From IMG/VR virus record IMGVR_UViG_3300045988_107529, positions 1 to 64,000 of that record: a stretch of DNA of 64,000 nucleotides, one strand, 5' to 3'. A program made the position numbers and the translations under genes. Under the pieces are notes generated by a model, which saw nothing but the letters and a program-made list of their open reading frames with translations, ran no database searches and was not told where the DNA came from. Below are positions 8,233 to 59,801 of this stretch, piece after piece. The DNA is from a virus. Position 1 is the stretch's first letter. Each line of letters starts with the position of its first letter.

Positions 8233-9003
8233 ATGTTCATGAGAGTAGTAAACACAGGGAGTACCAATGGAAACTGCTATGTTTTGAAATCCAACAGCGA
8301 AGAAATGCTTCTTCTGGACTGCGGATGCAGATACAAAGACATTCTGAAAGCTATTGATTATAGAACAAGTGATGTTTCTGGCGTATTGCTTAGTCATGAG
8401 CATGGAGATCACATCAAATCATTTCGGGAACTGATGAATGCTGGTATTCAGATTTACACCAATGATGAAACCGTGGAACATCTGCAAATAATCACTGGCG
8501 AATTGATGAAAGGAGTTCCAGAGAAAAGACCGTTCCGGGTTGGCTCGTTCACTGTAATACCATTTTATTTGCCACATACCACAAGAGATAAGGACACAGG
8601 GCAACTTATTCCTTGTTTCAATTATGGGTATATTGTAGAGCATGAAGAAATGGGAAAACTGTTGTACATGACTGACTTTGAATACTGCAAGTACAACTTC
8701 AAGGCAATGCGATTGAATCACTTGGTTATTGAGTGCAACTATTGTGGAGAATTGGTTGACAAAACAGCCGAAAATTACACGCACAGGCTTAAAGGGCATT
8801 GTTCCTTAGATACTTGCAAAAGCCTAGTAAATACAAACCATACGGCGGCATTACGGACGGTAACATTGGTGCATTTGAGTAATGAAGCAGCTGACCCGGA
8901 ACAGATTTTGAAAGAGATTAAAGAAGCGGTGGTTTGGGATGATGCGCTGGTTCAGATTGCAAGACCTGGACTGGAAATTAACTTGGACTTATGTCCGTTT
9001 TGA
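8233..9003 (+). CDS. Metallo-beta-lactamase-fold hydrolase (possible nuclease)
   Basis: 256 aa; HxHxDH motif LLSHEHGDHIKS. Confidence 0.75.
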   Translation: MFMRVVNTGSTNGNCYVLKSNSEEMLLLDCGCRYKDILKAIDYRTSDVSGVLLSHEHGDHIKSFRELMNAGIQIYTNDETVEHLQIITGELMKGVPEKRPFRVGSFTVIPFYLPHTTRDKDTGQLIPCFNYGYIVEHEEMGKLLYMTDFEYCKYNFKAMRLNHLVIECNYCGELVDKTAENYTHRLKGHCSLDTCKSLVNTNHTAALRTVTLVHLSNEAADPEQILKEIKEAVVWDDALVQIARPGLEINLDLCPF

Positions 9004-27451: not shown

Positions 27452-27480
27452 TTGAAAAAACACACATTATAGTGTATAAT
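27452..27480 (+). promoter_or_regulatory. Sigma-A-like promoter of the serine recombinase operon
   Basis: TTGAAA - 17 nt - TATAAT. Confidence 0.6.
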
Positions 27481-27510
27481 TGTTTTATAAAGAAACAGGA
27501 GTGTGTATAT

Positions 27511-28101
27511 ATGAAAGTAGGATATGTAAGAGTTTCAACAGTAGAACAAAATGAAGCGAGACAGATTGAAGCAATGAAAACAGATGGTGTTGAAAAAATT
27601 TATATGGATAAAAAATCTGGGAAAGACTTCAATCGTCCAGAGTATCAGAGAATGATTTCAGAGCTAACAAAAGACGATATATTGGTAATCCATTCAATTG
27701 ACCGTCTTGGAAGAAACTACAATGAAATTGTTGAACAGTGGAGATGTATCACAAAAGAAATCGGAGCCGATATTATCGTACAGGACATGCCACTTCTTAA
27801 CACATGCCAGGATAAAGACCTAACAGGAACCTTAATTACAGACATTGTATTGCAGCTTTTTTCATATGTAGCCCAAAGAGAGAGAGAAAACACTCGCCAA
27901 CGTCAAAAAGAAGGCATTGAAATAGCAAAGACGCAAGGCAAATATAAAGGCCGCGCCAAAAAAGAGATAGATAAGGAACTTTTCAAAGAAACCAAACGTA
28001 GCTGGCAAAGAGGGGAAATAACAAAGGTACAATTTGCCGAGATTATGGGAGTTTCAAGAAGCACGCTATATAAACTTTTAGAGGGGGATAAAGATGATTG
28101 A
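27511..28101 (+). CDS. Serine recombinase (resolvase/invertase family)
   Basis: MKVGYVRVSTVEQNEARQ..; C-terminal HTH GVSRSTLYKLL; 196 aa. Confidence 0.85.
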   Translation: MKVGYVRVSTVEQNEARQIEAMKTDGVEKIYMDKKSGKDFNRPEYQRMISELTKDDILVIHSIDRLGRNYNEIVEQWRCITKEIGADIIVQDMPLLNTCQDKDLTGTLITDIVLQLFSYVAQRERENTRQRQKEGIEIAKTQGKYKGRAKKEIDKELFKETKRSWQRGEITKVQFAEIMGVSRSTLYKLLEGDKDD

Positions 28102-29944: not shown

Positions 29945-30107
29945 TGTAATTGGGACAGCTGTAAATCTTGTATTTTTCGTTCTGGTTCTTGCTGGAACTT
30001 TAGCCATACTGGACGAAGAAGGAAAGACAAACGTAATACAGATTTTATTCTGCATTTGTTTAGAAATATGTTTCGCACTTAATATTTTTTTAATCTGCAC
30101 GAGGTGA
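29931..30107 (+). CDS. Small membrane protein (58 aa)
   Basis: ATG after GGGGAGG; two hydrophobic segments. Confidence 0.5.
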   Translation: MNALNVIGTAVNLVFFVLVLAGTLAILDEEGKTNVIQILFCICLEICFALNIFLICTR

Positions 30108-30405
30108 CAAATGTATTTACCGATTCCAATTGGAATTATCCCGATTGAGTTAATCGAAAGGGTTAAATTCATAAAAGCGCCGCTTCGACTTAATCCATGT
30201 AGGTTCGGGAAAGCCTATGAAAGTGATAAGTCGAGGCATCCAGAGTAGCGTAAGCTCTTATTGATGAATACGCCAGGAATTATTGAATATTTAGAAAAAG
30301 AAAATTTCCCTCCTGGAAAAGAGTAATCAGTAAGAGCGGAAAGTTTATATACTTGTTTAGCTTAATATCACGACTTCCCCGGTTTTAATGGTGCGCCGGG
30401 GTTGA

Positions 30406-30478
30406 TGGGCTATCGCCAAACGGTTAAGGCACAGCACTTTGACTGCTATATTTGCTGGTTCGAATCCAGTTAGCCCAG
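30406..30478 (+). tRNA. tRNA-Gln (anticodon UUG)
   Basis: Cloverleaf by hand. Acceptor tgggcta/tagccca (U1-A72), D gcc/ggc, anticodon loop ctTTGac, T-arm gctgg-ttcgaat-ccagt. No encoded CCA. Confidence 0.75.
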
Positions 30479-30628
30479 TTTGCGGTTTTGCTAACGCCGC
30501 AAGTTCATTTTATAACACTCTTTTCTGAAATCTAAAAGCGTTTCAGAAAACCTTTGTTGCGGTTGGTGGTCAAGAACTGCAACAGTGCCGGATTGTTTGT
30601 CATGGCGGTCAAATAATTCGGTATCTTA

Positions 30629-30701
30629 GGAAGCTTAGTTCAGCGGTAAGAGCAACGGCCTCATAAGCCGTAAGTCCTGGGTTCGAATCCCAGAGCTTCC
30701 A
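30629..30701 (+). tRNA. tRNA with CAU anticodon (Met or Ile2)
   Basis: Acceptor ggaagct/agcttcc, anticodon arm acggc-ctCATaa-gccgt, T-arm ctggg-ttcgaat-cccag. Confidence 0.85.
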
Positions 30702-31222
30702 TTTCTTCTAAATGCCATTCATCCGTAATATGGGTGGAAAAAACTTCCAGTTGAGCGTGTGGATTAGGTAAATTTATAGGTGCGATACGGCGTAGCCTAA
30801 ATGGATCTGATTTCCCGGCTGGTATATCTCGGAGTTAAAAACATTAACGCAGCGCACGTTAATAAAAGGAGTTTTCAAGAGATGCCGTTCAAAGACGCAT
30901 AAAAATATCCAGTGAATCTACAGCACTAAAACTTGTAGATAGTGGAAAGCATAACACGATAAACCTATTGCTAACCCGGAAGAACCGGGTTATTCGGAAA
31001 GTGCAAGTAACTGGGAACGGGCTAGTCGACTAGGTCTTGATGGTTCGAATCCATCCTTTCCGATTGTTTGGAGACTGAAAGTTTGGTGGTAGGAAAAGCA
31101 CAGAGCAGTGCGTAGGAATGTATAACCGAGTTCCGAATACGTACTGTTTATCGGTGATATAGTGACTTCCTCTAGTAGTCAATAAGTGAACGTGCTGAAA
31201 TGGTTCTTCCAAACATGTACAT
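30702..31222 (+). ncRNA. Densely structured non-coding spacer inside the tRNA cluster (candidate large ornate RNA or processed spacers)
   Basis: Hairpins at 30715-30737, 30843-30863, 30916-30940, 30973-30991 and 31106-31146. Possible long-range pairing tgtttgga (31066) with tccaaaca (31207). No credible ORF. Confidence 0.4.
30995..31063 (+). ncRNA. tRNA-like element 1 (acceptor stem plus T-arm, no canonical D or anticodon arm)
   Basis: Acceptor cggaaag/ctttccg, T-arm gatgg-ttcgaat-ccatc. The centre is the hairpin ctag-tcga-ctag with a 4-nt loop. Only 69 nt. Confidence 0.45.
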
Positions 31223-31294
31223 AGCAGGATAGAGAAGCGGAATCTCGCATGGCTCATATCCATGAAAACGGCGGTTCGAATCCGTCTCCTGCTA
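31223..31294 (+). tRNA. tRNA with CAU anticodon (second copy; Met/Ile2)
   Basis: Acceptor agcagga/tcctgct, D gaga/tctc, anticodon arm catgg-ctCATat-ccatg, T-arm ggcgg-ttcgaat-ccgtc. Confidence 0.8.
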
Positions 31295-31353
31295 TTCCAT
31301 CTACCAAGTGTAGATAGGAAATATGACTTTAGCATAGCTATTGTTGGTTTTTA

Positions 31354-31467
31354 GACGAGGCAGCTCAATTGGACAGAGCAATGAGAATATTAGTCATGTT
31401 TGTGACTATAACAGCAATTTACTCCATTACAAGGCATAGGTTGGTGGTTCGAATCCATCCCTCGTCA
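31354..31467 (+). ncRNA. tRNA-like element 2 (114 nt; canonical acceptor, D and T arms, expanded centre)
   Basis: Acceptor gacgagg/cctcgtc, D-arm gctc-aattggaca-gagc, T-arm ggtgg-ttcgaat-ccatc. About 60 nt of extra sequence includes the hairpin agtca-TGTTTG-tgact. Confidence 0.45.
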
Positions 31468-31468
31468 C

Positions 31469-31559
31469 TGCCCCGGTTATCGGTTACGGAAAACCGATTA
31501 GAACATGTTTGTGTTCTTCACTGCAAATAATTTTATAGGTTCAAATCCTGTCGGGGCAA
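31469..31559 (+). ncRNA. tRNA-like element 3 (91 nt; acceptor plus T-arm, two non-canonical hairpins)
   Basis: Acceptor tgccccg/cggggca, T-arm atagg-ttcaaat-cctgt, hairpins atcggtt/aaccgat and agaaca-TGTTTG-tgttct. Shares CATGTTTGTG with element 2 (31395 and 31504). Confidence 0.45.
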
Positions 31560-31653
31560 TTATGTGATGCTTACAGCAATCATTTTGGACATAACTGCTA
31601 AATTATGAAACCCAAAAGCATCATGAAATTTATGGGACGCTTACAGCAACTCA
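31560..31653 (+). repeat. Two ~23-nt direct repeats TTATGKGAYGCTTACAGCAAYYCA upstream of the vWA gene
   Basis: 31560-31582 and 31630-31653, 70 nt apart; followed by an AT-rich -10-like region. Confidence 0.6.
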
Positions 31654-31712
31654 CTTAAATAAAATCTAATTCGTATATTTTATATTTTTTGTGTCCTGAA
31701 AGGAGAAGAAAC

Positions 31713-33164
31713 ATGGATTTTGCAAATGCAATGAAGGAAGAAAGCAAGTTTACAAGAACTGAAAACGGAGCAGTTGCGCTGAATACTACAAGTGATGCAA
31801 GACTTGACCTGTTCGGAACTATTGGTGCATTGAGAGAAGCTGATGAAAATAGAATCACCACTTTATTCTCAGAAGCATTTGCACAGGATAAACTTTTTGC
31901 CACAAAGATTGCTTTTTATGCAAGAGATATTCGTTGTGGGCTTGGAGAGAGAAAAACTTTCCGAACCATTATCCGCTACATGGCTGAACATCATCCAGAA
32001 GCACTCAGACCGAATCTTGATTTAATTGGAGTATTCGGGAGATACGATGATCTGTATGAACTGATTGAAACACCACTTGAAGATGACATGTGGAAATCTA
32101 TGAAGAAACAATTTGAGGAAGATTTGAAAAATCTCAATGATGGAAAAGCAATTTCTTTACTTGCTAAATGGATTAAGACTGCTGATGCAAGTAGCAGAGA
32201 AACTAGGAAGTTAGGAATCTTGACTGCACAGAAGTTGGGTTATCCAGTCTACAACTTTAAGAGAATTGTTCGTAGCATGAGAAAACAGATCGGTGTTGTT
32301 GAAAGCCTTATGTCTGCCGGTAAATGGAATGAGATTAAATATCCAGAAGTTCCGAGCCGTGCAATGATGATTTATCGCAAGGCCTTTGCAAAACATGATC
32401 CAGATGGATTTAATGATTTTATTAATAAGGCTGATAAAGGAGAAGTTAAAATCAACGCTTCAACTTTGTATCCTTATGACATCGTGGAAAAAATCCTTTA
32501 CGGAAGAGAAAACAACAAAGTTCTTGAAGCACAGTGGAAAGCACTTCCAGATTATGTTGAACAGGGAACAAACGCACTCATAATGGCGGACGTATCTGGC
32601 TCAATGTATGGAAGACCAATGGCAACATCAATTGGACTAGCTATATATTTTGCCGAGAGAAACACAGGCGCATATCATAATCTTTTTATGACTTTCTCGG
32701 CAAATCCACAGATTGTTACTTTGAAAGGAGAAACACTTTTTCAAAAGGTGAGAAATGTTAATAAGGCAGACTGGGGAATGAATACAAACCTCAAAGCAGC
32801 ATTCGAGAAAGTTCTTGATATTGCTGAAAAGAACAATATTTCACAAGAACAAATGCCAAAAGCTATCGTTGTAATTTCCGATATGGAAATTGATCGTTGC
32901 GGAAATAAGGACTGGTCTTTTTATGACAAAATGGAAAGTAAGTTTCGCAAAGCCGGATATGTTATTCCAAACATTATTTTCTGGAATGTCGAAAGCAGAC
33001 ATGATGTATTCCACGCGGACTCTACAAGGAAAGGCGTACAGCTTGCAAGTGGTCAGTCGGTGACAGTGTTCAAACAGGTGTTACAGAATCTTGGATACAA
33101 TCCAATTGAAGCTATGGAGAACACGATCAATTCGGAAAGATACAATTGTATTACTGTCGAATGA
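31713..33164 (+). CDS. DUF2828-like helical domain plus vWA/MIDAS domain protein (Ro60-like architecture)
   Basis: 483 aa from ATG 31713 (SD AAAGGAG). N-terminal FTRTENGAVALNTTSDARLDLF resembles the DUF2828 start as I recall it. C-terminal IMADVSGSM .. VVISDMEID is MIDAS-like. Confidence 0.55.
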   Translation: MDFANAMKEESKFTRTENGAVALNTTSDARLDLFGTIGALREADENRITTLFSEAFAQDKLFATKIAFYARDIRCGLGERKTFRTIIRYMAEHHPEALRPNLDLIGVFGRYDDLYELIETPLEDDMWKSMKKQFEEDLKNLNDGKAISLLAKWIKTADASSRETRKLGILTAQKLGYPVYNFKRIVRSMRKQIGVVESLMSAGKWNEIKYPEVPSRAMMIYRKAFAKHDPDGFNDFINKADKGEVKINASTLYPYDIVEKILYGRENNKVLEAQWKALPDYVEQGTNALIMADVSGSMYGRPMATSIGLAIYFAERNTGAYHNLFMTFSANPQIVTLKGETLFQKVRNVNKADWGMNTNLKAAFEKVLDIAEKNNISQEQMPKAIVVISDMEIDRCGNKDWSFYDKMESKFRKAGYVIPNIIFWNVESRHDVFHADSTRKGVQLASGQSVTVFKQVLQNLGYNPIEAMENTINSERYNCITVE

Positions 33165-33224
33165 AACAAAAGTGAAAACCATCTCAGTTCCTTTGAAAAG
33201 AACTGTCCGTGACAGGCGGCAATA

Positions 33225-33296
33225 TGAAACATAGCTCAGTGGTAGAGCAATGATACTCAATATCATGTGACACAGGTTCGATTCCTGTTGTTTCTA
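33225..33296 (+). tRNA. tRNA with UCA anticodon (opal-suppressor/Trp-UGA type), atypical C33 and U1.U72
   Basis: Acceptor tgaaaca/tgtttct, D gctc-agtggta-gagc, anticodon arm atgat-acTCAat-atcat, T-arm acagg-ttcgatt-cctgt. Confidence 0.55.
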
Positions 33297-33414
33297 TCTG
33301 GCAAATTGCCATTGCCAGAAGTTGCATTTTCCCCCTTAAAGTTCCAGTGTTTCTCGTTGGGAGATTCATGCCGTTCAAGTCGGCACACTGGATTTTTCTA
33401 AATCGAGGTAATTT

Positions 33415-33564
33415 ATGAAAGAAAAATGTTGCAAGAATTGCAGAAGACATGATGACTTCACATGGGTTTGTTTCAATGGTGATAGCGAATATTGCGCAGA
33501 CTTTACGGAGCCAGAGTGTTATTGTGAGTTTTGGGAGAGAAAAGAAGATGGAGATATGTGGTAA
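33415..33564 (+). CDS. Small Cys-rich protein (49 aa)
   Basis: ATG after GAGGT. MKEKCCKNCRRHDDFTWVCFNGDSEYCADFTEPECYCEFWERKEDGDMW*. Preferred over the overlapping 5' part of track ORF 33449. Confidence 0.5.
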   Translation: MKEKCCKNCRRHDDFTWVCFNGDSEYCADFTEPECYCEFWERKEDGDMW

Positions 33565-33715
33565 AGAAATAAAAGACGAATGTTCAAACTGCGGAAATAT
33601 CCTTGAATGCGAATTGTTCCGTCAAGGGCATGGAATAAAACAGGAACGTGAAAACATAGCTAAAATGATTGCCTGTCAGATGAAGCACAGGGAGAGAAGG
33701 GAATTTGAATGCTAA
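33548..33715 (+). CDS. Small Cys-rich protein (55 aa)
   Basis: MEICGKEIKDECSNCGNILECELF... Confidence 0.45.
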   Translation: MEICGKEIKDECSNCGNILECELFRQGHGIKQERENIAKMIACQMKHRERREFEC

Positions 33716-33984
33716 ATTTACTTGATAAACGCAATTGCCCTGTTTGCGGTGGAATATTGAAATGTGAAAATGCCGATTTCACAAACCCTTTTATAGAAAA
33801 AGGACTCTTTTTAAATGTGACATGGCAATGCACCAATTGCGGCGCTGAATATACTGCAAAACTTGAATTAACCCCAAACGGATATGAGTTGCAAGACCGT
33901 GAAGCACATATTGATGTAGAGGATAATTTTTCAGCCGAAAAATTTATGCTTGGAAGAGACAATTTTCGAAGACAGAGGTGGTAA
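33709..33984 (+). CDS. Zinc-ribbon protein (91 aa)
   Basis: CPVCGG ... CTNCG. Confidence 0.55.
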   Translation: MLNLLDKRNCPVCGGILKCENADFTNPFIEKGLFLNVTWQCTNCGAEYTAKLELTPNGYELQDREAHIDVEDNFSAEKFMLGRDNFRRQRW

Positions 33985-33986
33985 AT

Positions 33987-34310
33987 ATGAAATTTGAGGA
34001 TATGGCAAACTGGACAGAGGAACAGCTAAAAAAAGAGGTTGTGAGACTATCTGAAGAATGTGAGAAGAAGCAGCATATAATCCTGGACTATGAAGCTTTA
34101 TCGGAGACAATTAACCAAAAGCTTCTTGAAAATGATAACTGGAAGATTCCGATTGATGGAATTGAAAATGTAGATACTGGTCATCCATCTATAGAATGGT
34201 ATGAACAACGCCACCAGGATGACTGTATTAGAATCAACGAGTTAACTGTTACTGTTGACACTCTGGTTGACCGATATGCTAATTTAAGGAAAAATAAAGG
34301 AATGTGCTGA
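33987..34310 (+). CDS. Hypothetical protein (107 aa)
   Basis: ATG after GAGGTGG. Confidence 0.55.
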   Translation: MKFEDMANWTEEQLKKEVVRLSEECEKKQHIILDYEALSETINQKLLENDNWKIPIDGIENVDTGHPSIEWYEQRHQDDCIRINELTVTVDTLVDRYANLRKNKGMC

Positions 34311-34311
34311 T

Positions 34312-34608
34312 ATGGGTGAAAAGGACAAGTTAAGACGCTTATTTATAGGAGATGGGGAAACAGCCATATCGGGAATACCAGAATTTCCAGGAGATTTAAT
34401 TGCTTATGCATTACAGACTTTTGAGACACAAGATAATTCTGTTATCTTCGCAGGAAAATCACTTGAATTTGAAACCGAATTTAAACTCACTAAAGAAAAC
34501 GCTTTGCTCTTTGCTTTTCCAGAACGAATAAATCAGAATAATTTCCGAAAAATGCATGGCATTCCAAAGCGGAGGAAAATTAATGGTACCAGGAAACGCA
34601 GATTATGA
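34312..34608 (+). CDS. Hypothetical protein (98 aa)
   Basis: Intact ORF. Confidence 0.55.
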   Translation: MGEKDKLRRLFIGDGETAISGIPEFPGDLIAYALQTFETQDNSVIFAGKSLEFETEFKLTKENALLFAFPERINQNNFRKMHGIPKRRKINGTRKRRL

Positions 34609-34834
34609 CCTTGACGGAGCTTTATTGCGTGATGAAGCCGTATATCTAAAGAAACTACATTCAGAGTATCTAGTATGCGATGATTTAAAGATTGGAAATA
34701 TTGAACCAATATCAAAAGAAGTGTTGAACAATATAGAAATCACACAAAACAAAAAGATTGTTTATGGAACTTTTGGAACATTTTCCATTAATGATTTGCC
34801 AAAGCAATTGAGGGAGAAAATTAATGAGTATTAA
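34583..34834 (+). CDS. Hypothetical protein (83 aa)
   Basis: ATG after GGAGGAAAA. Confidence 0.5.
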   Translation: MVPGNADYDLDGALLRDEAVYLKKLHSEYLVCDDLKIGNIEPISKEVLNNIEITQNKKIVYGTFGTFSINDLPKQLREKINEY

Positions 34835-35057
34835 GTCAGCATTAGAATCCGAAGGAATAGATTTTTCTGAATACATGAACCCACCAGAACCATGGAATGG
34901 ACAGGCATTAATACGGAATATCAATGGAACGAAATACGCCTGTTGTCCTTTTTGCCAGAAGAAAGCGCTTCTGATTAGCCCAAACACGAAGATTCAGCAC
35001 TTGAAACTGAAATGTAAGGGTAGTAATTGCAAGAAAGAGTTTGAGGTGAATGTATGA
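34824..35057 (+). CDS. Zinc-ribbon protein (77 aa)
   Basis: CCPFC ... CKGSNC. Confidence 0.55.
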   Translation: MSIKSALESEGIDFSEYMNPPEPWNGQALIRNINGTKYACCPFCQKKALLISPNTKIQHLKLKCKGSNCKKEFEVNV

Positions 35058-35233
35058 ACACAAAACGGATTAAATGTATTTTGACAGGTGGATGCAAGTT
35101 CAAAAGTTCGGATACAGAATCGAAATGCAATGATAAAGAAAAGACTTGCACCATTACAGAAACTTGCTACAAATGTGGGAAGAAGTACACTGCCGTATTT
35201 ACCTACAAACAATTAGGGATTCCAGTGAGGTGA
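35054..35233 (+). CDS. Small Cys-rich protein (59 aa)
   Basis: ATGA overlap; SD GAGGTG. Junction GAGGTGAATGTATGAA is repeated at the next gene start. Below the track cut-off. Confidence 0.5.
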   Translation: MNTKRIKCILTGGCKFKSSDTESKCNDKEKTCTITETCYKCGKKYTAVFTYKQLGIPVR

Positions 35234-35237
35234 ATGT

Positions 35238-35519
35238 ATGAATTGGTTTAAAGAAAAATGTTCCCACCTATATGAGGAAATTGGGAAATGCTATGACAGA
35301 ATAGATTACGGAAATGGTACTCATATAAATGCTTATATTGTAAAAAAATGCAAAATATGCGGAAATATTACAGCCAAGACTGTATATTCAAATGAATTTA
35401 CAAAGTATACATCTCCTGTAAGAGTTGATGATTGTGTAAAAAAACTGATAGCTAAAGGATATGTTGACAAGGTTGATTTCTTTTTGGAACACGAAAATGA
35501 TAATATACCGTGGAAATAA
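35238..35519 (+). CDS. Hypothetical protein (93 aa) with CKICG motif
   Basis: Same GAGGTGAATGTATGAA junction. Confidence 0.55.
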   Translation: MNWFKEKCSHLYEEIGKCYDRIDYGNGTHINAYIVKKCKICGNITAKTVYSNEFTKYTSPVRVDDCVKKLIAKGYVDKVDFFLEHENDNIPWK

Positions 35520-35534
35520 ATGGAGGTCTATTGA

Positions 35535-35729
35535 GTGAAGAAGGCAAGAAAAATATGTTGGATAATTGCGAATTTCATAATATTCAAATGGGCAGCAGAT
35601 TATTTGATAGCCACAATTCAAATGATGGTTGAAAATAATTGGGGATTTTCGGCAGTACCATTACTGTTTATGGCAGTATTCGCAGAATGGAAAGTAATTG
35701 AAAATATTTTTACGGAATTAAGAAGATGA
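35535..35729 (+). CDS. Small membrane protein (64 aa, GTG start)
   Basis: SD GGAGG; two hydrophobic segments. Confidence 0.5.
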   Translation: MKKARKICWIIANFIIFKWAADYLIATIQMMVENNWGFSAVPLLFMAVFAEWKVIENIFTELRR

Positions 35730-35750
35730 TTTTATCAAGAAAGGATATGT

Positions 35751-35954
35751 ATGACAAAACAAGAAGCCGTAGTAGTTGAAACCTACACAGGAATTTGTAT
35801 GCTTGTAGGAGATGATCGCCGACTTGCATATGAATATGCAGAAAAACTTTTAGGTCATCCGATATATACGCATGAATTCCCAAAGTATGTCGACGAGTTA
35901 AAAAAACTTAGCAAGCCAGATTTTATTGAAATTTGCAAAAAGTTAAGCGATTAA
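35751..35954 (+). CDS. Hypothetical protein (67 aa)
   Basis: Intact ORF. Confidence 0.55.
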   Translation: MTKQEAVVVETYTGICMLVGDDRRLAYEYAEKLLGHPIYTHEFPKYVDELKKLSKPDFIEICKKLSD

Positions 35955-36116
35955 ATGGTATGGTGCGAATTAAGAAACATTCCGTGCATACATCCAGAAC
36001 CAGATGGATTAGAAAATTGCAGATATTGTGAAAAATATAGTTTTGAAAAATATTTAGAATACAAAAAATCAAAAAGAAAAGTCAAGAGAGCCAAAAAGGA
36101 GCGCCATTATGAGTGA
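35955..36116 (+). CDS. Small Cys-rich basic protein (53 aa), tentative
   Basis: MVWCELRNIPCIHPEPDGLENCRYCEKY..; weak SD; overlaps the rtcB start. Confidence 0.3.
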   Translation: MVWCELRNIPCIHPEPDGLENCRYCEKYSFEKYLEYKKSKRKVKRAKKERHYE

Positions 36117-37311
36117 TTTGAAGATATTTACAGAAAAAATCGAGCAAGAAGCATTAAATCAAATTTATACACTAATAAAACAGCCTGCATTTTCTGAATG
36201 TAAAGTACGAATCATGCCAGATGTTCACGCAGGGGCAGGATGTGTAATTGGCTTTACAGCTGATCTTGGAGATAAAGTAATTCCGAACATTGTTGGAGTA
36301 GACATTGGATGCGGAATGCTCACAACACAAATTCCTACTGATGTGGGAACAATAGATTTTAAAATCCTTGACGAAGTGATAAGAAATAATGTTCCGGCAG
36401 GAAGAAATGTACGTGACGAAATCATAAATTTTAAAGAATTAGAAGAACTTCACTGCTTTTCACTGCTTAAAAATGTTGAATGGATTCGCAGGAGTCTTGG
36501 TACACTTGGGGGAGGAAATCATTTTATTGAAGTTGACACCGATTCAAAAGGCATAAACTACCTTGTAATTCACACTGGAAGTCGTAACCTTGGAAAACAG
36601 GTAGCTGAAATATATCAAAAAATTGCCATAGAAGATATGCAGGGTACAGATAAGCTCGAAACTGAAATACAGAAATTAGTAAAAGAATACAAGTGCTCTG
36701 GCAGGCATAAGGAAATTCAAAATAGTATTGATGAATTAAAACGAAAATGGAAGCCAGACAAACTTGGAATTCCGAAAGAACTATGTTATTTGACAGGTGA
36801 GCATAGAAGACAATATCTGCATGATATGAAAATCTGTCAAGAATTTGCAAGAATAAACAGAAGATGCATACAGTCAGCTATATTCTACACTATGAATTGG
36901 ACACTTCAAAGAAACACATGGTTTGACACAATTCATAATTATATTGACCACGATACAAATATTGTTCGGAAAGGTGCGATATCAGCTAAACATGGTGAAA
37001 AAGTTCTTATCCCTATGAATATGCGAGATGGATGTATTATTGCAATTGGAAAAGGAAATGAGGATTGGAACTGTTCAGCCCCGCATGGCGCAGGGCGTAT
37101 TATGAGCCGATCAAAAGCAAAAGAAAACATTTCGTTAGAAGAATTTAAGGAGTCTATGAATGGGATATATACAACATCCGTTCAGAAATCTACAATTGAC
37201 GAAAGCCCTATGGCTTACAAACCGCCGCAAGAAATTATTGATAAAATCAAAGATACCGTAGATATAGTTGATATTATTAAACCTGTATATAATTTCAAAG
37301 CAAGTGAATAA
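36109..37311 (+). CDS. rtcB: RtcB RNA 3'-phosphate ligase
   Basis: 400 aa with the RtcB signatures PDVHAGAG, DIGCGM, GGGNHFIEVD, HTGSRNLG and APHGAGR. Confidence 0.9.
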   Translation: MSDLKIFTEKIEQEALNQIYTLIKQPAFSECKVRIMPDVHAGAGCVIGFTADLGDKVIPNIVGVDIGCGMLTTQIPTDVGTIDFKILDEVIRNNVPAGRNVRDEIINFKELEELHCFSLLKNVEWIRRSLGTLGGGNHFIEVDTDSKGINYLVIHTGSRNLGKQVAEIYQKIAIEDMQGTDKLETEIQKLVKEYKCSGRHKEIQNSIDELKRKWKPDKLGIPKELCYLTGEHRRQYLHDMKICQEFARINRRCIQSAIFYTMNWTLQRNTWFDTIHNYIDHDTNIVRKGAISAKHGEKVLIPMNMRDGCIIAIGKGNEDWNCSAPHGAGRIMSRSKAKENISLEEFKESMNGIYTTSVQKSTIDESPMAYKPPQEIIDKIKDTVDIVDIIKPVYNFKASE

Positions 37312-37378: not shown

Positions 37379-39130
37379 ATGTCAAAAATTACAGAAGGTT
37401 CGCTCGAATGGTATCGGGCAGTGCTGAATCAAATTATCAGTAGTGATATGACAATCTATCAGAACCAAAAAGATTGCCTTGATTTGCTCTTGAACATGAA
37501 TATTGACCTTCCTTTCGACAAGAACCAAGAAGCACGGAAAATGGCCATGAAAGTAAGCCAATACTCACATAACATAGCAGAGAAGTGTGCTGCATTAACT
37601 GGCAGTGGCGATTTTGATGATATCTACTGGCAGTATTTGTTACTGGAAGCACCACATTTGCTGGATTCCTATGCCATGTATATAGAAAAAGATAGAAAAC
37701 CAGAAGAACGGTTCTATTTGCCAAGACGCAGAACATTGAAAAAAGTAGTAGATAAATTACAAGCACTTGAAGAAGATGAACTTGACGAATTGTTTCTGCA
37801 TCAGCCAGCCAGAACTGGTAAATCACAAATTATTACTGTCGGAACCGCATGGCATTGTGCAAGAAATTCAGAGATAAGCAACCTCTATGTTACATATAAA
37901 GAAGGACTTGGCGGTGCATTCCTAGATGGAGTTACGGAAATATGGACTGACCCAACATATTGCCATGAAGATGTATTTCATTCAAAAATAGCCAGAACAG
38001 ATGCAAAGAACCACAAAGTAGACCTTGAAAGAAAGAAAAAATATGCGACATTATCTGGAAAAGGTTTGGAATCTGGTTTGAACGGTGAGTATGACGCATA
38101 TGGTTGGCTGATTCTCGATGATATCCTGGAAGGTATTCAAGATGTATTAAATCCAGATATTCTCAGAAGAAAGCAAATTGTGTTTGACAACAATGTAATG
38201 TCACGAAAGAAAGAACAATGTAAATTGATTCTAAATGGTACTATCTGGTCATTGCATGATTTGTATATGGACAGACTATCATTTCTTCAGAATAATCCAG
38301 AAGCAAAACACATTAGATATGATGTTCTTAAAATTCCAGCTCTTGACCCGGAAACTGATGAGAGTAATTTTGACTACGATTACGGAGTTGGATTCAGTAC
38401 AAAATATTATCGCACTATTCGTTCTAAATTTGAAGAAAACGATGATATGGCAGGATGGTTAGCCCAGTATCAGCAGGAACCTATTGAAAGAGATGGTGCT
38501 TTATTTAATGCGCAACATATGAACTTTTATAATGGACAATTGCCAGATGAAGAACCATTGAAAGTAGTTTCAGCTTGCGATGTGGCTCTTGGCGGTAGTG
38601 ATTATCTTGCAATGCCAGTAGCATATGTATATGAAGATGGTTCCGTATATATACACGAAGTAGTATTTGATAATTCTGAAAAGAAATTTACTATGCCAAA
38701 AGTCGTATCAGCAATTGTCAATAATAAAGTTACGAATGCTTTTTTTGAAGCCAATGCAGGCGGCGAAGGGTATAAAGATGAAGTAGAAGGAAAGTTAAAG
38801 GAGCAAGGGTATCAAACTAATCTTACTTCTAAATATGCGCAACAAATGATTTTGAATAATGGTGGACACGCACCTAAATCGGCAGTGAGAAAAGAACAGA
38901 GAATTTGGGATAATGCTGAAAACATTAGAAAATTTTATTTTCTTGATACTGGATATCAAAACGCAGAGTATAGAAAATTTATGAATAATGTCTATTCATT
39001 CACAATGACAGGAAAAAATAAGCACGATGACGCACCGGATTCACTCGCTAGTTTAGCAGTATTCTTAAAAAATGGAAGCGGAGTTGGAACCGCAACAGCA
39101 ACACAGAATCCACTTTGGGGAAGGAGATAG
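37379..39130 (+). CDS. Terminase large subunit
   Basis: 583 aa. Walker A-like QPARTGKS, Walker B-like WLILDD. Position immediately before the portal. Confidence 0.8.
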   Translation: MSKITEGSLEWYRAVLNQIISSDMTIYQNQKDCLDLLLNMNIDLPFDKNQEARKMAMKVSQYSHNIAEKCAALTGSGDFDDIYWQYLLLEAPHLLDSYAMYIEKDRKPEERFYLPRRRTLKKVVDKLQALEEDELDELFLHQPARTGKSQIITVGTAWHCARNSEISNLYVTYKEGLGGAFLDGVTEIWTDPTYCHEDVFHSKIARTDAKNHKVDLERKKKYATLSGKGLESGLNGEYDAYGWLILDDILEGIQDVLNPDILRRKQIVFDNNVMSRKKEQCKLILNGTIWSLHDLYMDRLSFLQNNPEAKHIRYDVLKIPALDPETDESNFDYDYGVGFSTKYYRTIRSKFEENDDMAGWLAQYQQEPIERDGALFNAQHMNFYNGQLPDEEPLKVVSACDVALGGSDYLAMPVAYVYEDGSVYIHEVVFDNSEKKFTMPKVVSAIVNNKVTNAFFEANAGGEGYKDEVEGKLKEQGYQTNLTSKYAQQMILNNGGHAPKSAVRKEQRIWDNAENIRKFYFLDTGYQNAEYRKFMNNVYSFTMTGKNKHDDAPDSLASLAVFLKNGSGVGTATATQNPLWGRR

Positions 39131-39133
39131 AAT

Positions 39134-39556
39134 ATGATGACTGCAACTCAATATTTACGCCAGATTGAAAATTATGATAACAGAATCAAAAATAAGCTTA
39201 TTGAAGAAGAACAGCTCAGTTCTCTTTCCACAAGCGTATCTGCAATTCCTGTTGGAGAAAAGGTACAAACTTCTGTGAAACGTGATCCGATGGGAGATAT
39301 GATTGCGAAGATATTTGACCTGCGAGAAGAGATTTCAGAAATGATATCTGAATTTTTACAAAAAAGACAAGAAATAGTCCGAACTATAGAACAGGTTGAA
39401 GATCCATTACTATATGACATATTATTTAAGCACTATGTTGAGTACAAATCTTTGGTTCGCATTGCAGATGAGATGGGTTATTCAGAGATTCACATTAAAA
39501 AAAAGCATTTAAAAGCCATAGCAGAAATAAAAAAGATAAAAGGTTTTGAAAGATGA
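39134..39556 (+). CDS. Sigma-70 region-4-like / RinA-ArpU-type late regulator (140 aa)
   Basis: YLRQIENYDNRIKNKLIEEEQL .. YKSLVRIADEMGYSEIHIKKKHLKAIAEI (C-terminal HTH). Family assignment is from memory only. Confidence 0.45.
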   Translation: MMTATQYLRQIENYDNRIKNKLIEEEQLSSLSTSVSAIPVGEKVQTSVKRDPMGDMIAKIFDLREEISEMISEFLQKRQEIVRTIEQVEDPLLYDILFKHYVEYKSLVRIADEMGYSEIHIKKKHLKAIAEIKKIKGFER

Positions 39557-39579
39557 TACCGAAGTATACTGAATGATAC
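39549..39579 (+). promoter_or_regulatory. Conserved 31-nt promoter-like motif, copy 1
   Basis: AAAGATGATACCGAAGTATACTGAATGATAC: GATAC(C) half-sites 20 nt apart around the -10-like TATACT. 26/31 identical to 52574-52604. Confidence 0.5.
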
Positions 39580-39606
39580 CGCCAATATGTGTAAAATATA
39601 AAGTAG

Positions 39607-39641
39607 AGCATTGGATTAAAATATCCAGTGCTTTTTATTTT
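39607..39641 (+). terminator. Rho-independent terminator ~30 nt downstream of motif copy 1
   Basis: agcattggat-taaaat-atccagtgct followed by TTTTATTTT. Confidence 0.7.
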
Positions 39642-39674
39642 GCAGAAAGGATGGTTCGACTTGTGAGAAATACA

Positions 39675-41147
39675 ATGAATTTTGTAGATTTATGCCGAGG
39701 TGAGTTCGGGCGAAAAGTAGCCTACACAGGCGTTGACCGAATCACTCCACAAAATGTAGTAAAAGTAGTTTCAGATACAATTGGCATACATAATAGAAAC
39801 CGAACATTGATTGATTACTTGTATCGGTACATGAAAGGCGATCAGCCGATATTATACCGAAACAAAATAGTCCGTCCAGAAGTTAATAACAGAGTGGTTG
39901 AAAATCACGCATTTGAAACTGTAAAATTTAAAGCTGGACAGATTTGTGGGGAACCAATCCAATATGTATGCAAAAAGAAAAAAGCAGATAAAAAAATAAA
40001 TGAGCAAGTTGACCTTCTGAATGATTATCTGGATGAAGCCAATGCAGATGCAAGAAACATCCAAAGGGCAATATACCAAAGTGCAACAGGAACTTCTTAT
40101 AAGGCTATTCTGAAAGAAGAGGACTGGACAAAAAACGGAGATTTACCACCGTTTAGAATCTTCATTCCGTATCCAGGTGATTGTTACATTGTATACTCAC
40201 AGAGAAATGGGAAACCAATGCTTTCCGTGCAGATTTTAAAAGATGAAGATGAACAGCAATATTATTTATGTTATTCAAAGAACCAGTTTTTTGAAATCAA
40301 GAATGGAAAAGTAACTAACTACGGCATCAATGGTTTTGGCGGGATTCCAATTGTTGAATGTCCAAATAATCACGACAGACTTTCAGATGTTGAAATTGCA
40401 ATCACCTTATTTGATGCAATTAACAAATACCAGTCCGATAGATTAAATGGCGTGGAACAGTTTGTGCAAGCCTTTATGAAGTTTAAGAACTGTGAGGTAG
40501 ACGAAAACGAGTTTTTGAAAATGGTAAAACTTGGTGCTATCTCTGTTAAAGATACTGGAAATGGCTGTCAGTCGGATGTTGAACTGATGACCGCTGAACT
40601 GAATCAATCAGAGAGCCAGGTTGCAAAGGATGATATCTACAATAATATGCTGATTGTGGAAGCAATGCCAAACCGCCAAAGCAATAGCGGAGGTGATACA
40701 GGAAATGCCGTATACCTTCGTAATGGATGGGACTTCGCAGAAAGAGATGCGAAATTGGTAGAAGCATTCACCAAGGAAGCCGAAAAGGAATCTGCTAGAA
40801 TTATTCTGAATATTATCCGTGGCACGTCAAATGATGTTAATATCTCAACCCGAGATTTTGATGTAAAGATAACCAGAAACCCAACAGACAATATGCTTGT
40901 AAAAGCACAGGCACTTGATTATCTGTTTAAAAATAAAATTCATCCGCTTATTGCATTGATTACTTGTGGGCTTTTCAGTGATCCGCAGAAAGTCTACGAA
41001 ATGAGTTTACCGTATCTGGGAACTATTTACCCGGAACTGGCAGACCCGGAAGCGGAAATGCAGAAAGCACAGCAATTACTTGACGGAAAGTTTCAAAATC
41101 CGTCCAAAACAGAACCAATGGCAAATTCTCCATCTAACGAAGAATGA
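39675..41147 (+). CDS. Portal protein (SPP1 gp6-like)
   Basis: About 490 aa. Follows the terminase. ..DYLYRYMKGDQPILYR.. N-terminal pattern. Start uncertain (39651, GTG 39663 or 39675). Confidence 0.7.
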   Translation: MNFVDLCRGEFGRKVAYTGVDRITPQNVVKVVSDTIGIHNRNRTLIDYLYRYMKGDQPILYRNKIVRPEVNNRVVENHAFETVKFKAGQICGEPIQYVCKKKKADKKINEQVDLLNDYLDEANADARNIQRAIYQSATGTSYKAILKEEDWTKNGDLPPFRIFIPYPGDCYIVYSQRNGKPMLSVQILKDEDEQQYYLCYSKNQFFEIKNGKVTNYGINGFGGIPIVECPNNHDRLSDVEIAITLFDAINKYQSDRLNGVEQFVQAFMKFKNCEVDENEFLKMVKLGAISVKDTGNGCQSDVELMTAELNQSESQVAKDDIYNNMLIVEAMPNRQSNSGGDTGNAVYLRNGWDFAERDAKLVEAFTKEAEKESARIILNIIRGTSNDVNISTRDFDVKITRNPTDNMLVKAQALDYLFKNKIHPLIALITCGLFSDPQKVYEMSLPYLGTIYPELADPEAEMQKAQQLLDGKFQNPSKTEPMANSPSNEE

Positions 41148-59540: not shown

Positions 59541-59801
59541 TTTTTGACTGATTGTGTGGTATGATTTCTTTAATGAAGAAGTACACACGGTTTTGATTTT
59601 TGAGCCGCTAAGAAGAAATTAATATTTCTCGATTTTGAGGAATTTTTATCTTACTTGGCGGCTCTTTTTTATTTTAACCGTTAATTTTGGTAAAACCAAC
59701 AGGCTAGACCGATCATCGAAAAGCGGAAATGCCTTGCCGCCTGCCTGTTGATTTACATACAGTTCAAGGCACTCTTTTATACGAAAGGCAGGTATCAATC
59801 T

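What the first reader, a model, noticed from the sequence alone, without database searches (positions are those of the whole stretch)
30406..37311. Linked tRNA/tRNA-like RNAs, a DUF2828-vWA (Ro60-like architecture) protein and RtcB: candidate phage RNA-repair or RNA-surveillance module
RtcB (36109-37311, all signature motifs present) seals 2',3'-cyclic-phosphate/5'-OH RNA breaks such as those made by anticodon nucleases. It is encoded 3-6 kb downstream of the tRNA and tRNA-like cluster. Between them lies a 483-aa protein with a helical N-domain and a MIDAS-type vWA domain, the same two-part layout as Ro60/Rsr. In Salmonella, rsr, the tRNA-like YrlA/YrlB Y RNAs and rtcBA form one operon. The association here of non-canonical tRNA-like RNAs, a vWA protein and RtcB is a striking parallel. 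It may represent a counter-defence against tRNA-cleaving host systems.
Basis: partly seen in the sequence, partly recalled or inferred. Interest (0 to 1): 0.65.

Follow-up and report, generated by a model that had tools for sequence, protein, structure and literature searches.

The report
Phage Ro60-like protein with ACAGCAA RNAs
A gut phage encodes a Ro60-shaped protein next to odd tRNA-like RNAs that all carry the short motif ACAGCAA; this protein-RNA pairing recurs in many unrelated phages and I found no description of it, whereas the nearby RNA ligase RtcB is only an occasional neighbour.

Summary
Every feature is present as described: four tRNAs, several non-canonical tRNA-like RNAs, a 483-aa DUF2828+vWA protein and an intact RtcB. 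A confident AlphaFold2 model of the protein (pLDDT 95) has Ro60 structures as its 11 best PDB matches, all full length. No sequence method links it to TROVE, so it is a Ro60-fold paralogue. Some databases already call it "Ro-like".

The new result concerns RNA. In 31 of 36 divergent lineages of this gene, the 7-mer ACAGCAA lies on the coding strand within 400 nt of the gene. That is 59 copies against 1 on the opposite strand, and 11 times the density found more than 2 kb away. A helix almost always sits just 5' of the motif. In the window it occurs in a tRNA-Val(UAC) gene with a 40-nt insert in its anticodon stem, in a stem-enclosed unit, and in the gene's own 5'UTR. A fourth, tRNA-like element carries the variant ACTGCAA. 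No Rfam family matches these RNAs.

RtcB is facultative: 7 of 13 close relatives and 3 of 36 lineages have it.

Best reading: a Ro60/Y-RNA-like RNP acting on phage tRNA transcripts, with RtcB as an optional add-on. The counter-defence role remains speculative.

The parts
30406..30478 (+). tRNA-Gln(UUG)
   Evidence: ARAGORN; Rfam tRNA 58.2 bits
30629..30701 (+). tRNA-Met(CAU)
   Evidence: ARAGORN; Rfam tRNA 71.5 bits
30995..31063 (+). Sub-threshold tRNA-like element: acceptor stem and T arm are good, the anticodon region is aberrant
   Evidence: Rfam tRNA 27.1 bits against a gathering score of 29; model R1 18.9 bits
31222..31295 (+). tRNA-Met(CAU)
   Evidence: ARAGORN; Rfam tRNA 60.7 bits
31354..31467 (+). 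tRNA-Val(UAC)-like gene with a ~40-nt insert (31384-31423) in the 5' strand of the anticodon stem. The insert holds a hairpin (31392-31407) followed by ACAGCAA (31411-31417).
   Evidence: Model R1, built from other lineages only, scores it 88.3 bits, E 2.8e-18, about 45 bits above any canonical tRNA. Covariation is shown. ARAGORN calls tRNA-Val(UAC) only after the insert is removed in silico.
31470..31558 (+). tRNA-like RNA with acceptor stem, T arm and two hairpins. The second hairpin (AGAACAT-GTTT-GTGTTCT) is followed by the motif variant ACTGCAA.
   Evidence: Fold z-score -3.67; R1 30.7 bits; conserved with compensatory changes in L007, L015, L028 and L034
31565..31623 (+). Stem-enclosed ACAGCAA unit: stem 31565-31572 pairs with 31616-31623, motif at 31573-31579
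   Evidence: Sequence; predicted fold; motif positions; same architecture in Listeria and Campylobacter phages
31634..31697 (+). ACAGCAA unit in the 5'UTR of the Ro-like gene: stem 31634-31640 pairs with 31691-31697, motif at 31643-31649. It ends 3 nt before the AAGGAG ribosome-binding site. Candidate autoregulatory site.
   Evidence: By my count from the position lists, 20 of 36 lineages have a copy about 26-130 nt upstream of the start codon.
31713..33164 (+). 483-aa DUF2828 + DUF7788/vWA protein with the Ro60 fold (helical repeat domain plus MIDAS vWA domain)
   Evidence: Pfam; PHROG 850 'RNA-binding protein'; AlphaFold2 pLDDT 95.3; Foldseek top 11 PDB hits are Ro60
33225..33296 (+). tRNA with anticodon UCA (opal-suppressor type, with C at position 33) 60 nt after the stop codon
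   Evidence: ARAGORN; Rfam 57.7 bits; the same scaffold carries anticodon UGA in relatives L005 and L010
33344..33392 (+). tRNA-like element without an anticodon arm: acceptor stem, mini D arm and T arm
   Evidence: Sequence; compensatory changes in relatives
36109..37311 (+). RtcB RNA 3'-phosphate/2',3'-cyclic-phosphate ligase, an accessory cassette directly upstream of the large terminase gene
   Evidence: Pfam 1.2e-62; catalytic motifs intact; present in 7 of 13 close relatives

Best explanation
The locus encodes a Ro60/Y-RNA-type ribonucleoprotein system built from a different protein family and a different RNA signature.

The protein. The DUF2828-vWA protein has a Ro60-like helical domain plus a MIDAS vWA domain.

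The RNA element (binding is inferred). I infer that the protein binds an RNA element made of a helix end followed by single-stranded ACAGCAA.

Where the element occurs:
- Inside otherwise complete tRNA genes, as a roughly 40-nt side arm in the 5' strand of the anticodon stem. The window copy is tRNA-Val(UAC), 31354-31467.
- In reduced tRNA-like or stem-enclosed RNAs (31470-31558, which carries the variant ACTGCAA, and 31565-31623).
- In the gene's own 5'UTR just before the ribosome-binding site (31634-31697), where binding would give feedback control.

Genomic setting. The system usually sits inside phage tRNA arrays.

Likely job (inferred). It probably chaperones, surveys, matures or protects phage tRNA and tRNA-like transcripts, or tethers them to a partner through the vWA domain, as Y RNAs tether Ro60 to PNPase.

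RtcB. It is a functional RNA ligase gene, but it is a facultative neighbour acquired by some lineages, not a core part.

Shown: the fold, the motif-gene association, the RNA structures and their covariation, and RtcB's patchy presence. Inferred: direct protein-RNA binding, autoregulation, and the biological role.
For: Fold:
- The AlphaFold2 model has pLDDT 95.3 and pTM 0.93.
- Foldseek against PDB ranks Ro60/TROVE entries 1-11 (9kop, 9l5y, 1yvr, 1yvp, 2i91, 9nfa, 9nf8, 9nep). E-values run from 2e-7 to 8e-5 over about 500-580 aligned columns, with TM up to 0.59. vWA-only hits follow at E > 2e-3.
- A TROVE protein from a crAss-like phage is also hit in BFVD, E 1.8e-8.
- MIDAS residues and many Arg, Lys and aromatic residues are invariant.

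Motif and gene:
- 31 of 36 lineages below 70% identity have ACAGCAA on the coding strand within 400 nt. There are 59 copies against 1 on the opposite strand.
- Density is 2.07 per kb near the gene against 0.19 per kb beyond 2 kb, Poisson P 7e-40.
- 51 of 59 copies have a helix strand of at least 7 bp ending 0-4 nt 5' of the motif, against 34% of control positions, P 5e-15.
- The lineages include cultured phages of Enterobacteria (wV8), Mycobacterium (Faith1), Listeria (AG20), Campylobacter (CP30A) and Vibrio (K567), which have the motif within 400 nt, and Bacillus phage Chewbecca, whose nearest copy lies about 530 nt upstream.
- 5 of the 7 lineages with no canonical tRNA in the fetched flanks still carry the motif.
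- The tRNA array of phage T5, which lacks the gene, shows no enrichment.

RNA class:
- The pattern ACAGCRA followed by a T loop occurs 137 times on the + strand and 4 on the - strand.
- In the structure count, 95.3% of cells are paired, against 63% in shuffles and 39-47% when partners are slid. All 7 pairs of the insert hairpin show changes on both sides.
- A model built without the window's lineage finds the window copy at E 2.8e-18.
- In a search starting from the RNA pattern, 52 of 80 hits have the gene within 1.3 kb on the same strand. Nearly all the other hits were chance matches inside coding sequence.

tRNA arrays: a canonical tRNA lies within 1 kb in 20 of 36 lineages, against 9% of control positions.
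Against: - No experiment shows that the protein binds RNA or this motif.
- No HMMER-level link to TROVE exists, so homology rests on a predicted structure with moderate global TM (0.46-0.59).
- The motif is only 7 nt long. It lies in two different secondary-structure contexts, which a single binding mode must accommodate.
- Insert-bearing tRNAs often keep canonical anticodon loops with anticodons not otherwise present in the fetched locus: 29 of the 43 sequences that pass a simple anticodon-loop filter, out of 71 analysed. This fits a precursor or intron reading as well as a Y-RNA reading.
- 5 of 36 lineages lack the exact motif within 400 nt.
- My literature access is limited, so prior description cannot be excluded.
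Confidence: 0.6

Rival explanations
1. tRNA-intron model. The ACAGCAA module is an intervening sequence in phage pre-tRNAs. It is cut out and the exons are rejoined by RtcB (phage or host). The Ro-like protein recognises the intron or scaffolds the reaction.
For: - The module interrupts otherwise complete cloverleaves of many isoacceptor types.
- The split anticodon stem covaries: ATG...CAT in the window against GTA...TAC in L008.
- 43 of 71 sequences keep a canonical 7-nt anticodon loop, and 29 of those carry an anticodon not otherwise found in the fetched locus.
- None of the 71 is called a tRNA as it stands, and 69 are called after one contiguous deletion. That test is permissive.
- RtcB is present in the window, in L067 and in Listeria phages.
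Against: - The same motif occurs outside tRNAs: in the 5'UTR and in stem-enclosed units of Listeria, Campylobacter and Vibrio phages.
- No endonuclease candidate was found among the neighbouring ORFs.
- RtcB is absent from 6 of 13 close relatives that keep the insert-bearing tRNA and from 33 of 36 lineages.
- 28 of 71 sequences have aberrant anticodon loops.
- The insert lies in the stem (about position 29/30), not at the canonical 37/38 site, and no bulge-helix-bulge motif was looked for.
Confidence: 0.2
2. The tRNA-like RNAs, the Ro-like protein and RtcB form one obligate RNA-repair operon, equivalent to Salmonella rsr-yrlBA-rtcBA, that reseals tRNAs cut by host anticodon nucleases.
For: - The protein has the Ro60 fold.
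- RtcB is intact.
- All the genes are on the same strand.
- The pairing recurs independently in Listeria A511-like phages, with an HD phosphohydrolase in between, and in L067.
- In cultured Listeria phages the two genes have similar record counts, 54 and 58.
Against: - RtcB comes and goes among phages whose Ro-like proteins are 89-94% identical to the window's. When present it is tied to the terminase gene, not to the Ro-like gene.
- Only 3 of 36 lineages have it nearby.
- The large Felix O1-like group appears to carry the Ro-like gene without RtcB, judging from the organism tallies of the two searches.
- The RNAs are not YrlA.
Confidence: 0.12
3. ACAGCAA plus its helix is a transcript-processing or transcription signal of phage tRNA operons. 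It would be read by a nuclease or polymerase factor other than the DUF2828 protein, and the gene merely resides in the same operon.
For: The motif lies between tRNAs and in leaders, where processing sites are expected. Most copies sit at the start of a stem-enclosed loop.
Against: - The motif is identical in phages of Actinobacteria, Firmicutes, Proteobacteria, Campylobacter and gut bacteria. To my knowledge these hosts differ in RNases and promoters, which favours a phage-encoded reader.
- The motif tracks the gene even where no canonical tRNA is nearby (5 of 7 such lineages).
- It is absent from the T5 tRNA array.
Confidence: 0.08

Closest known systems
Bacterial Ro60 (Rsr) with tRNA-like Y RNAs (YrlA/YrlB), and the Salmonella rsr-yrlBA-rtcBA operon (Chen et al. 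2014, PMC4201824; PMC7790460)
   Same: - Ring-type helical domain plus MIDAS vWA protein.
- Non-coding RNAs encoded next to the gene.
- RNAs that are modular and imitate tRNA.
- A short conserved single-stranded motif beside a stem.
- RtcB sometimes linked.
   Different: - The protein belongs to the DUF2828/DUF7788 sequence families and does not match the TROVE model.
- The motif is ACAGCAA, not GNCGAA.
- The RNAs include complete tRNA cloverleaves with open acceptor ends and a side arm in the anticodon stem, whereas YrlA replaces the anticodon arm with the Ro-binding stem.
- The locus is embedded in phage tRNA arrays.
- No RtcR or RtcA was found among the ORFs scanned between the Ro-like gene and the portal gene.
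- RtcB is facultative.
Thermus phage phiLo Ro60 with Yrl1/Yrl2 (PMC12135203; PDB 9KOP, 9L5Y)
   Same: - Phage-encoded.
- Best structural match to the window protein.
- Partner RNAs lie just upstream of the gene.
   Different: - phiLo Ro60 is reported as a Ro60 homologue, and its PDB entry 9KOP is titled "Trove domain".
- Its RNAs are stem-bulge Y-like RNAs with a CGAA motif, and the paper does not describe them as tRNA genes.
- The paper mentions no RtcB.
'Ro-like RNA binding protein' (SEA-PHAGES annotation, e.g. Faith1 gp55) and PHROG 850 'RNA-binding protein'
   Same: Same protein family: 34% identity to Faith1 gp55 over the full length, and PHROG 850 at 2.7e-138.
   Different: These are database labels only. 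I found no description of partner RNAs, of the ACAGCAA motif or of the placement in tRNA arrays.
Archaeal and eukaryal intron-containing pre-tRNAs spliced by an endonuclease plus RtcB
   Same: An intervening sequence in the anticodon arm, and an RtcB-type ligase in some of the loci.
   Different: - The insert lies in the stem 5' strand rather than at 37/38.
- No splicing endonuclease was found.
- The motif also occurs outside tRNAs.
- The host is bacterial.

Membership tests
Ro60 / TROVE (Pfam PF05731) | Sequence match to the TROVE domain model | tested here: not met
   Pfam scans of the window protein and of 72 homologues at E<=1 gave no TROVE hit. phmmer and a profile search against PDB found only vWA domains.
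Ro60 / TROVE (Pfam PF05731) | Helical-repeat ring domain followed by a C-terminal vWA domain (Ro60 fold) | tested here: met
   The AlphaFold2 model (pLDDT 95.3) has Ro60 entries as Foldseek ranks 1-11, with probability 1.0, about 500-580 aligned columns and TM 0.46-0.59. Whether the ring is closed could not be inspected.
Ro60 / TROVE (Pfam PF05731) | MIDAS metal site in the vWA domain (DxSxS...T...D) | tested here: met
   D293, S295, S297, T358 and D390 are invariant in 72 sequences.
Ro60 / TROVE (Pfam PF05731) | An adjacent Y RNA of the known type (YrlA, GNCGAA motif) | tested here: not met
   No Rfam family other than tRNA matched at E<=10 in window 30000-33600 or at E<=0.05 in five cultured-phage loci. 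A different motif, ACAGCAA, takes its place.
Ro60 / TROVE (Pfam PF05731) | Binds structured or misfolded RNA | not testable with these tools
   This needs EMSA, RIP or a structure of the complex.
DUF2828 / DUF7788 (UCP015417 vWA proteins) | Pfam PF11443 plus PF25043 above their gathering scores | tested here: met
   141.7 and 147.4 bits. All 72 homologues match both models.
RtcB RNA ligase | Pfam PF01139 match and catalytic Cys/His motifs | tested here: met
   213 bits. The alignment to P. horikoshii RtcB conserves MPDxHxG, DIxCG, GxGNHF, HTGSR and HGAGR.
rsr-yrl-rtcBA type RNA-repair operon | Ro60 and RtcB conserved together as one unit | tested here: not met
   RtcB is present in 7 of 13 close relatives, always next to the terminase gene, and in 3 of 36 lineages.
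Canonical tRNA | Rfam RF00005 at or above its gathering score | tested here: met
   Four genes meet it. The element at 31354-31467 is not detected by Rfam or ARAGORN as it stands.
Intron-containing pre-tRNA (bulge-helix-bulge type) | Intron at position 37/38 or flanked by a bulge-helix-bulge motif, together with a splicing endonuclease | tested here: inconclusive
   The insert maps to about position 29/30 of the anticodon-stem 5' strand. No endonuclease was found among the neighbours. The bulge-helix-bulge motif was not searched for.

The most novel reading that the evidence does not exclude
Phages of bacteria carry a protein-guided tRNA splicing or maturation system. A conserved ~40-nt ACAGCAA module interrupts the anticodon stem of phage tRNA genes. 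A Ro60-fold protein encoded next door recognises it. The module is then removed and the tRNA resealed by RtcB (phage or host). This would gate phage tRNA supply, or hide the anticodon arm from host nucleases until it is needed.
Probability: 0.15. Interest if true: 0.9.

Novelty: new variant of a known kind. Interest (0 to 1): 0.72.

Why it matters
Ro60/Y-RNA particles are a long-studied but functionally murky class of RNP.

- **A second branch.** This points to a second, sequence-distinct branch that is common in phages. It occurs in 711 cultured phage genomes, including Felix O1-like, Listeria A511-like, cluster L mycobacteriophages and Campylobacter phages, and in thousands of protein clusters from genomes and metagenomes.
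- **A testable RNA signature.** The branch has its own simple RNA signature (helix + ACAGCAA), which can be tested directly.
- **Hidden tRNA-like genes.** It also reveals a class of tRNA genes that standard finders miss, because they carry a side arm in the anticodon stem. This bears on how phage tRNA arrays are used and protected.
- **Tractable models.** Because model phages carry the system, binding, knockout and RNA-seq experiments are immediately feasible.

Tried and rejected
- **Sequence link to Ro60.** phmmer and a profile search against PDB, and Pfam scans of 72 members, gave only vWA hits. The link to Ro60 is therefore structural only.
- **Rfam.** Nothing other than tRNA matched the ACAGCAA RNAs.
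- **Promoter and terminator scan.** Counts equalled those of shuffled sequence, so the scan says nothing about transcription units.
- **Near-identical DNA in cultured phages.** Only three short faecal contigs matched.
- **Burroughs and Aravind 2016 RNA-repair paper.** It is not held in the library.
- **Literature searches.** Searches for DUF2828, for Ro-like together with tRNA-like, and for phage tRNA introns found no description of this RNA motif.
- **Small ORFs between the Ro-like gene and RtcB.** No RNA-repair domain was found. The only hits were a sub-threshold Lar-like zinc finger and DUF7736.
- **In-silico insert removal.** ARAGORN calls a tRNA in 69 of 71 sequences after removal. The test tries many deletions and ARAGORN is permissive, so it carries little weight.
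- **Chance or composition as the cause of the motif cluster.** Rejected on the 59:1 strand asymmetry, the 11-fold enrichment near the gene and the T5 control.

Full report
**1. What is in the window**

The window is a human-gut tailed phage with nearly all genes on the + strand. Identical or near-identical proteins occur on about 77-80 kb contigs.

Between a block of small early-type ORFs and the packaging genes lies a 1.5-kb non-coding stretch (30172-31712). The packaging genes are TerL 37379-39130 and portal 39573-41147.

ARAGORN and Rfam agree on four canonical tRNAs:
- Gln-UUG, 30406-30478
- Met-CAU, 30629-30701
- Met-CAU, 31222-31295
- a UCA-anticodon tRNA, 33225-33296

The 483-aa ORF 31713-33164 matches DUF2828, DUF7788 and VWA_2 and PHROG 850 "RNA-binding protein".

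RtcB (36109-37311) matches Pfam at 1.2e-62 and keeps every catalytic motif when aligned to P. horikoshii RtcB.

**2. Is the protein Ro60-like?**

Sequence methods do not connect it to Ro60:
- phmmer and a 72-sequence profile against all PDB sequences hit only vWA domains.
- None of the 72 homologues touches the TROVE model.

Structure does connect it:
- An AlphaFold2 model built on a diverse alignment (38-58% identity) is very confident: pLDDT 95.3, pTM 0.93.
- Its 11 best Foldseek matches in PDB are all Ro60. They are the Thermus phage phiLo Ro60 (9kop, 9l5y), Xenopus Ro60 (1yvr, 1yvp, 2i91) and human Ro60 (9nfa, 9nf8, 9nep).
- These matches align over about 500-580 columns with probability 1.0 and TM up to 0.59.
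- The next hits are isolated vWA domains with E-values about 30-fold or more weaker.
- In BFVD the model matches DUF2828 and DUF7788 proteins of phages and giant viruses, and also a TROVE protein of a crAss-like phage.
- The MIDAS residues are invariant.

I conclude that this is a Ro60-fold paralogue family, not a TROVE member by sequence.

This much is already implicit in databases. Cluster L mycobacteriophage homologues are annotated "Ro-like RNA binding protein", and Listeria and Vibrio phage homologues "RNA-binding protein".

The family is large: 6,714 clusters at 50% identity and 711 cultured phage records.

**3. The RNA partner**

Eighty IMG/VR loci carrying homologues at 40-94% identity were fetched. 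In most of them the gene sits inside or at the edge of a tRNA array. By lineage, a canonical tRNA lies within 1 kb in 20 of 36, against 9% of control positions at least 4 kb away in the same loci.

The loci also hold many well-formed T arms that ARAGORN does not assign to any tRNA, and these cluster beside the gene. Reading them showed a recurrent ~114-124-nt RNA:
- a complete tRNA cloverleaf, interrupted in the 5' strand of the anticodon stem;
- the interruption is a ~40-nt module made of an A-rich/U-rich closing stem, a hairpin of variable sequence, and the invariant heptamer ACAGCAA.

Support for this RNA class:
- The pattern "ACAGCRA ... T loop" occurs 137 times on the coding strand and 4 times on the other strand in 1.56 Mb.
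- In an alignment of 41 non-redundant copies, the acceptor, D, insert-hairpin and T helices all covary.
- In that alignment, 95.3% of cells are paired, against 63% in column shuffles and 39-47% for slid partners.
- All 7 pairs of the insert hairpin show changes on both sides. The acceptor stem was a selection criterion, but the insert hairpin and the D stem were not.
- A covariance model built only from lineages below 70% protein identity to the window finds window 31354-31467 at 88.3 bits, E 2.8e-18. That is about 45 bits above any canonical tRNA.
- The same model also picks up 31470-31558, Faith1 7465-7594 and wV8 8311-8441.

**4. The motif tracks the gene, not tRNAs as such**

- After collapsing the loci to 36 lineages (below 70% amino-acid identity), 31 have an exact ACAGCAA on the coding strand within 400 nt of the gene. 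There are 59 copies against 1 on the opposite strand.
- Density is 2.07 per kb there and 0.19 per kb on the same strand beyond 2 kb, Poisson P about 7e-40.
- 51 of 59 copies have a helix strand of at least 7 bp ending 0-4 nt upstream of the motif, against 34% of control positions.
- The helix is either a local hairpin, as in the window's tRNA insert, or the 5' strand of a stem that encloses about 40-50 nt. The second form is seen in Listeria AG20, Campylobacter CP30A, Bacillus Chewbecca and window 31565-31623.
- By my count from the position lists, 20 of 36 lineages have a copy about 26-130 nt upstream of the start codon.
- In the window this leader copy is 31634-31697, ending 3 nt before the ribosome-binding site.
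- 5 of the 7 lineages with no canonical tRNA in the fetched flanks still have the motif.
- The T5 tRNA array, which has no such gene, shows no enrichment.
- Starting from the RNA pattern instead, 52 of 80 IMG/VR hits had the gene within 1.3 kb, always on the same strand. Nearly all the remaining hits were chance matches inside coding sequence.
- No Rfam family covers these RNAs.
- I found nothing on them in the literature available to me.

**5. RtcB**

Within the window's own clade (Ro-like protein 89-94% identical), RtcB is present in 7 of 13 genomes. It is always 69-70 nt upstream of TerL and 2.5-5.3 kb from the Ro-like gene, across a mosaic of small ORFs that differ from phage to phage. None of those ORFs has an RNA-repair domain.

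Across lineages RtcB lies within the fetched flanks in 3 of 36. One of these is an independent case: Listeria phage AG20, where RtcB follows the Ro-like gene by 1.2 kb with an HD phosphohydrolase between them.

In cultured phages the two genes have similar overall frequency, 711 and 677 of 50,697 records. They clearly overlap in Listeria phages. They do not appear to overlap in the large Felix O1-like group, judging from the organism tallies.

RtcB is therefore a recurrent but optional neighbour.

**6. Mechanism**

The best-supported reading is a Ro60/Y-RNA-like RNP. The protein would recognise a helix end plus single-stranded ACAGCAA, a geometry like the helix-plus-single-strand ligands of Ro60 (general knowledge of 1YVP and 2I91). 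Its partner RNAs are tRNA-derived, as YrlA is (PMC4201824). The copy in its own leader suggests feedback control.

What the particle does is inferred only. The candidates are quality control, maturation or protection of phage tRNA transcripts, or tethering them to a host factor through the vWA domain. The last would resemble phiLo Ro60 and its Yrl RNAs, which act on PNPase (PMC12135203).

The main rival is that the module is a true intervening sequence. In its favour:
- 43 of 71 insert-bearing genes keep a canonical anticodon loop, and 29 of those supply an anticodon not otherwise seen in the fetched locus.
- The split anticodon stem covaries.
- Removing one segment restores a tRNA that ARAGORN recognises (a permissive test).

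Against it:
- The motif also occurs outside tRNAs.
- No endonuclease was found.
- RtcB is absent from most genomes that carry the inserts.

The two readings share the step "the Ro-like protein binds the module". RNA-seq of infected cells would separate them.

**7. Verdict**

The Ro-like label and the Ro60-Y RNA-RtcB precedent are known. The ACAGCAA RNA signature, the tRNA genes with anticodon-stem side arms, and their tight linkage to the DUF2828 family across phages of very different hosts appear to be undescribed.

I rate this as a new variant of a known kind, with interest 0.72.

Noticed in passing
window 33225-33296: A tRNA with anticodon UCA (opal-suppressor type; ARAGORN labels it 'SeC'), an ordinary short variable region and C at position 33. 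In close relatives L005 and L010 the same scaffold has the loop ATTGAAT (anticodon UGA). Other relatives carry different tRNAs in this slot. Large ORFs in the window read through normally under the standard code, so global UGA recoding is not evident.
   Followed up: partly
window 33344-33392: A ~48-nt tRNA-like element without an anticodon arm: acceptor stem CCAGTGT/ACACTGG, a mini D arm, and a T arm. It is conserved downstream of the Ro-like gene with compensatory changes in relatives. It carries no ACAGCAA.
   Followed up: partly
window 30700-31222: About 500 nt of non-coding sequence between tRNAs. It is conserved at 67-90% in relatives and contains a sub-threshold tRNA-like element (30995-31063) and stable hairpins (30880-31000, fold z-score -3.3). 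No family was assigned.
   Followed up: no
L204 (Listeria phage vB_LmoM_AG20) 1464-2015: A ROOL RNA (RF03087) match of 90.1 bits, E 6e-17, just under the gathering score of 99.1. It lies in the tRNA region about 1 kb upstream of that phage's DUF2828 gene. A possible link between the large ornate ROOL RNAs and this protein family is worth checking.
   Followed up: no
L205 (Campylobacter phage CP30A) 1913-2334: Four tRNAs in a stretch where the GenBank record lists no features, directly upstream of its DUF2828 gene.
   Followed up: no
L208 (phage T5) 8285-12000: The T5 tRNA region carries annotated 'tRNA-like stable RNAs with unknown functions' (RNA1, RNA2, RNA3) but has no DUF2828 gene and no ACAGCAA enrichment. 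Model R1 gives only a weak hit, 16.9 bits, to RNA1.
   Followed up: partly
window 59697-59769: An int-alpA RNA (RF02996) match above its gathering score, 45.4 bits.
   Followed up: no
window 27472-28101: A serine recombinase (resolvase plus HTH_7 domains) upstream of the tRNA region.
   Followed up: no
window 39134-39556: A small protein between TerL and the portal gene, with weak matches to DUF1492, antiterminator Q and sigma-70 region 4.
   Followed up: no
L084 (Escherichia phage wV8) 8311-8441: An insert-bearing tRNA-Thr(GGU)-like RNA with ACAGCAA (R1 37.9 bits). It overlaps the annotated minus-strand hypothetical CDS 48 (8332-8589), which may therefore be a mis-annotation.
   Followed up: partly
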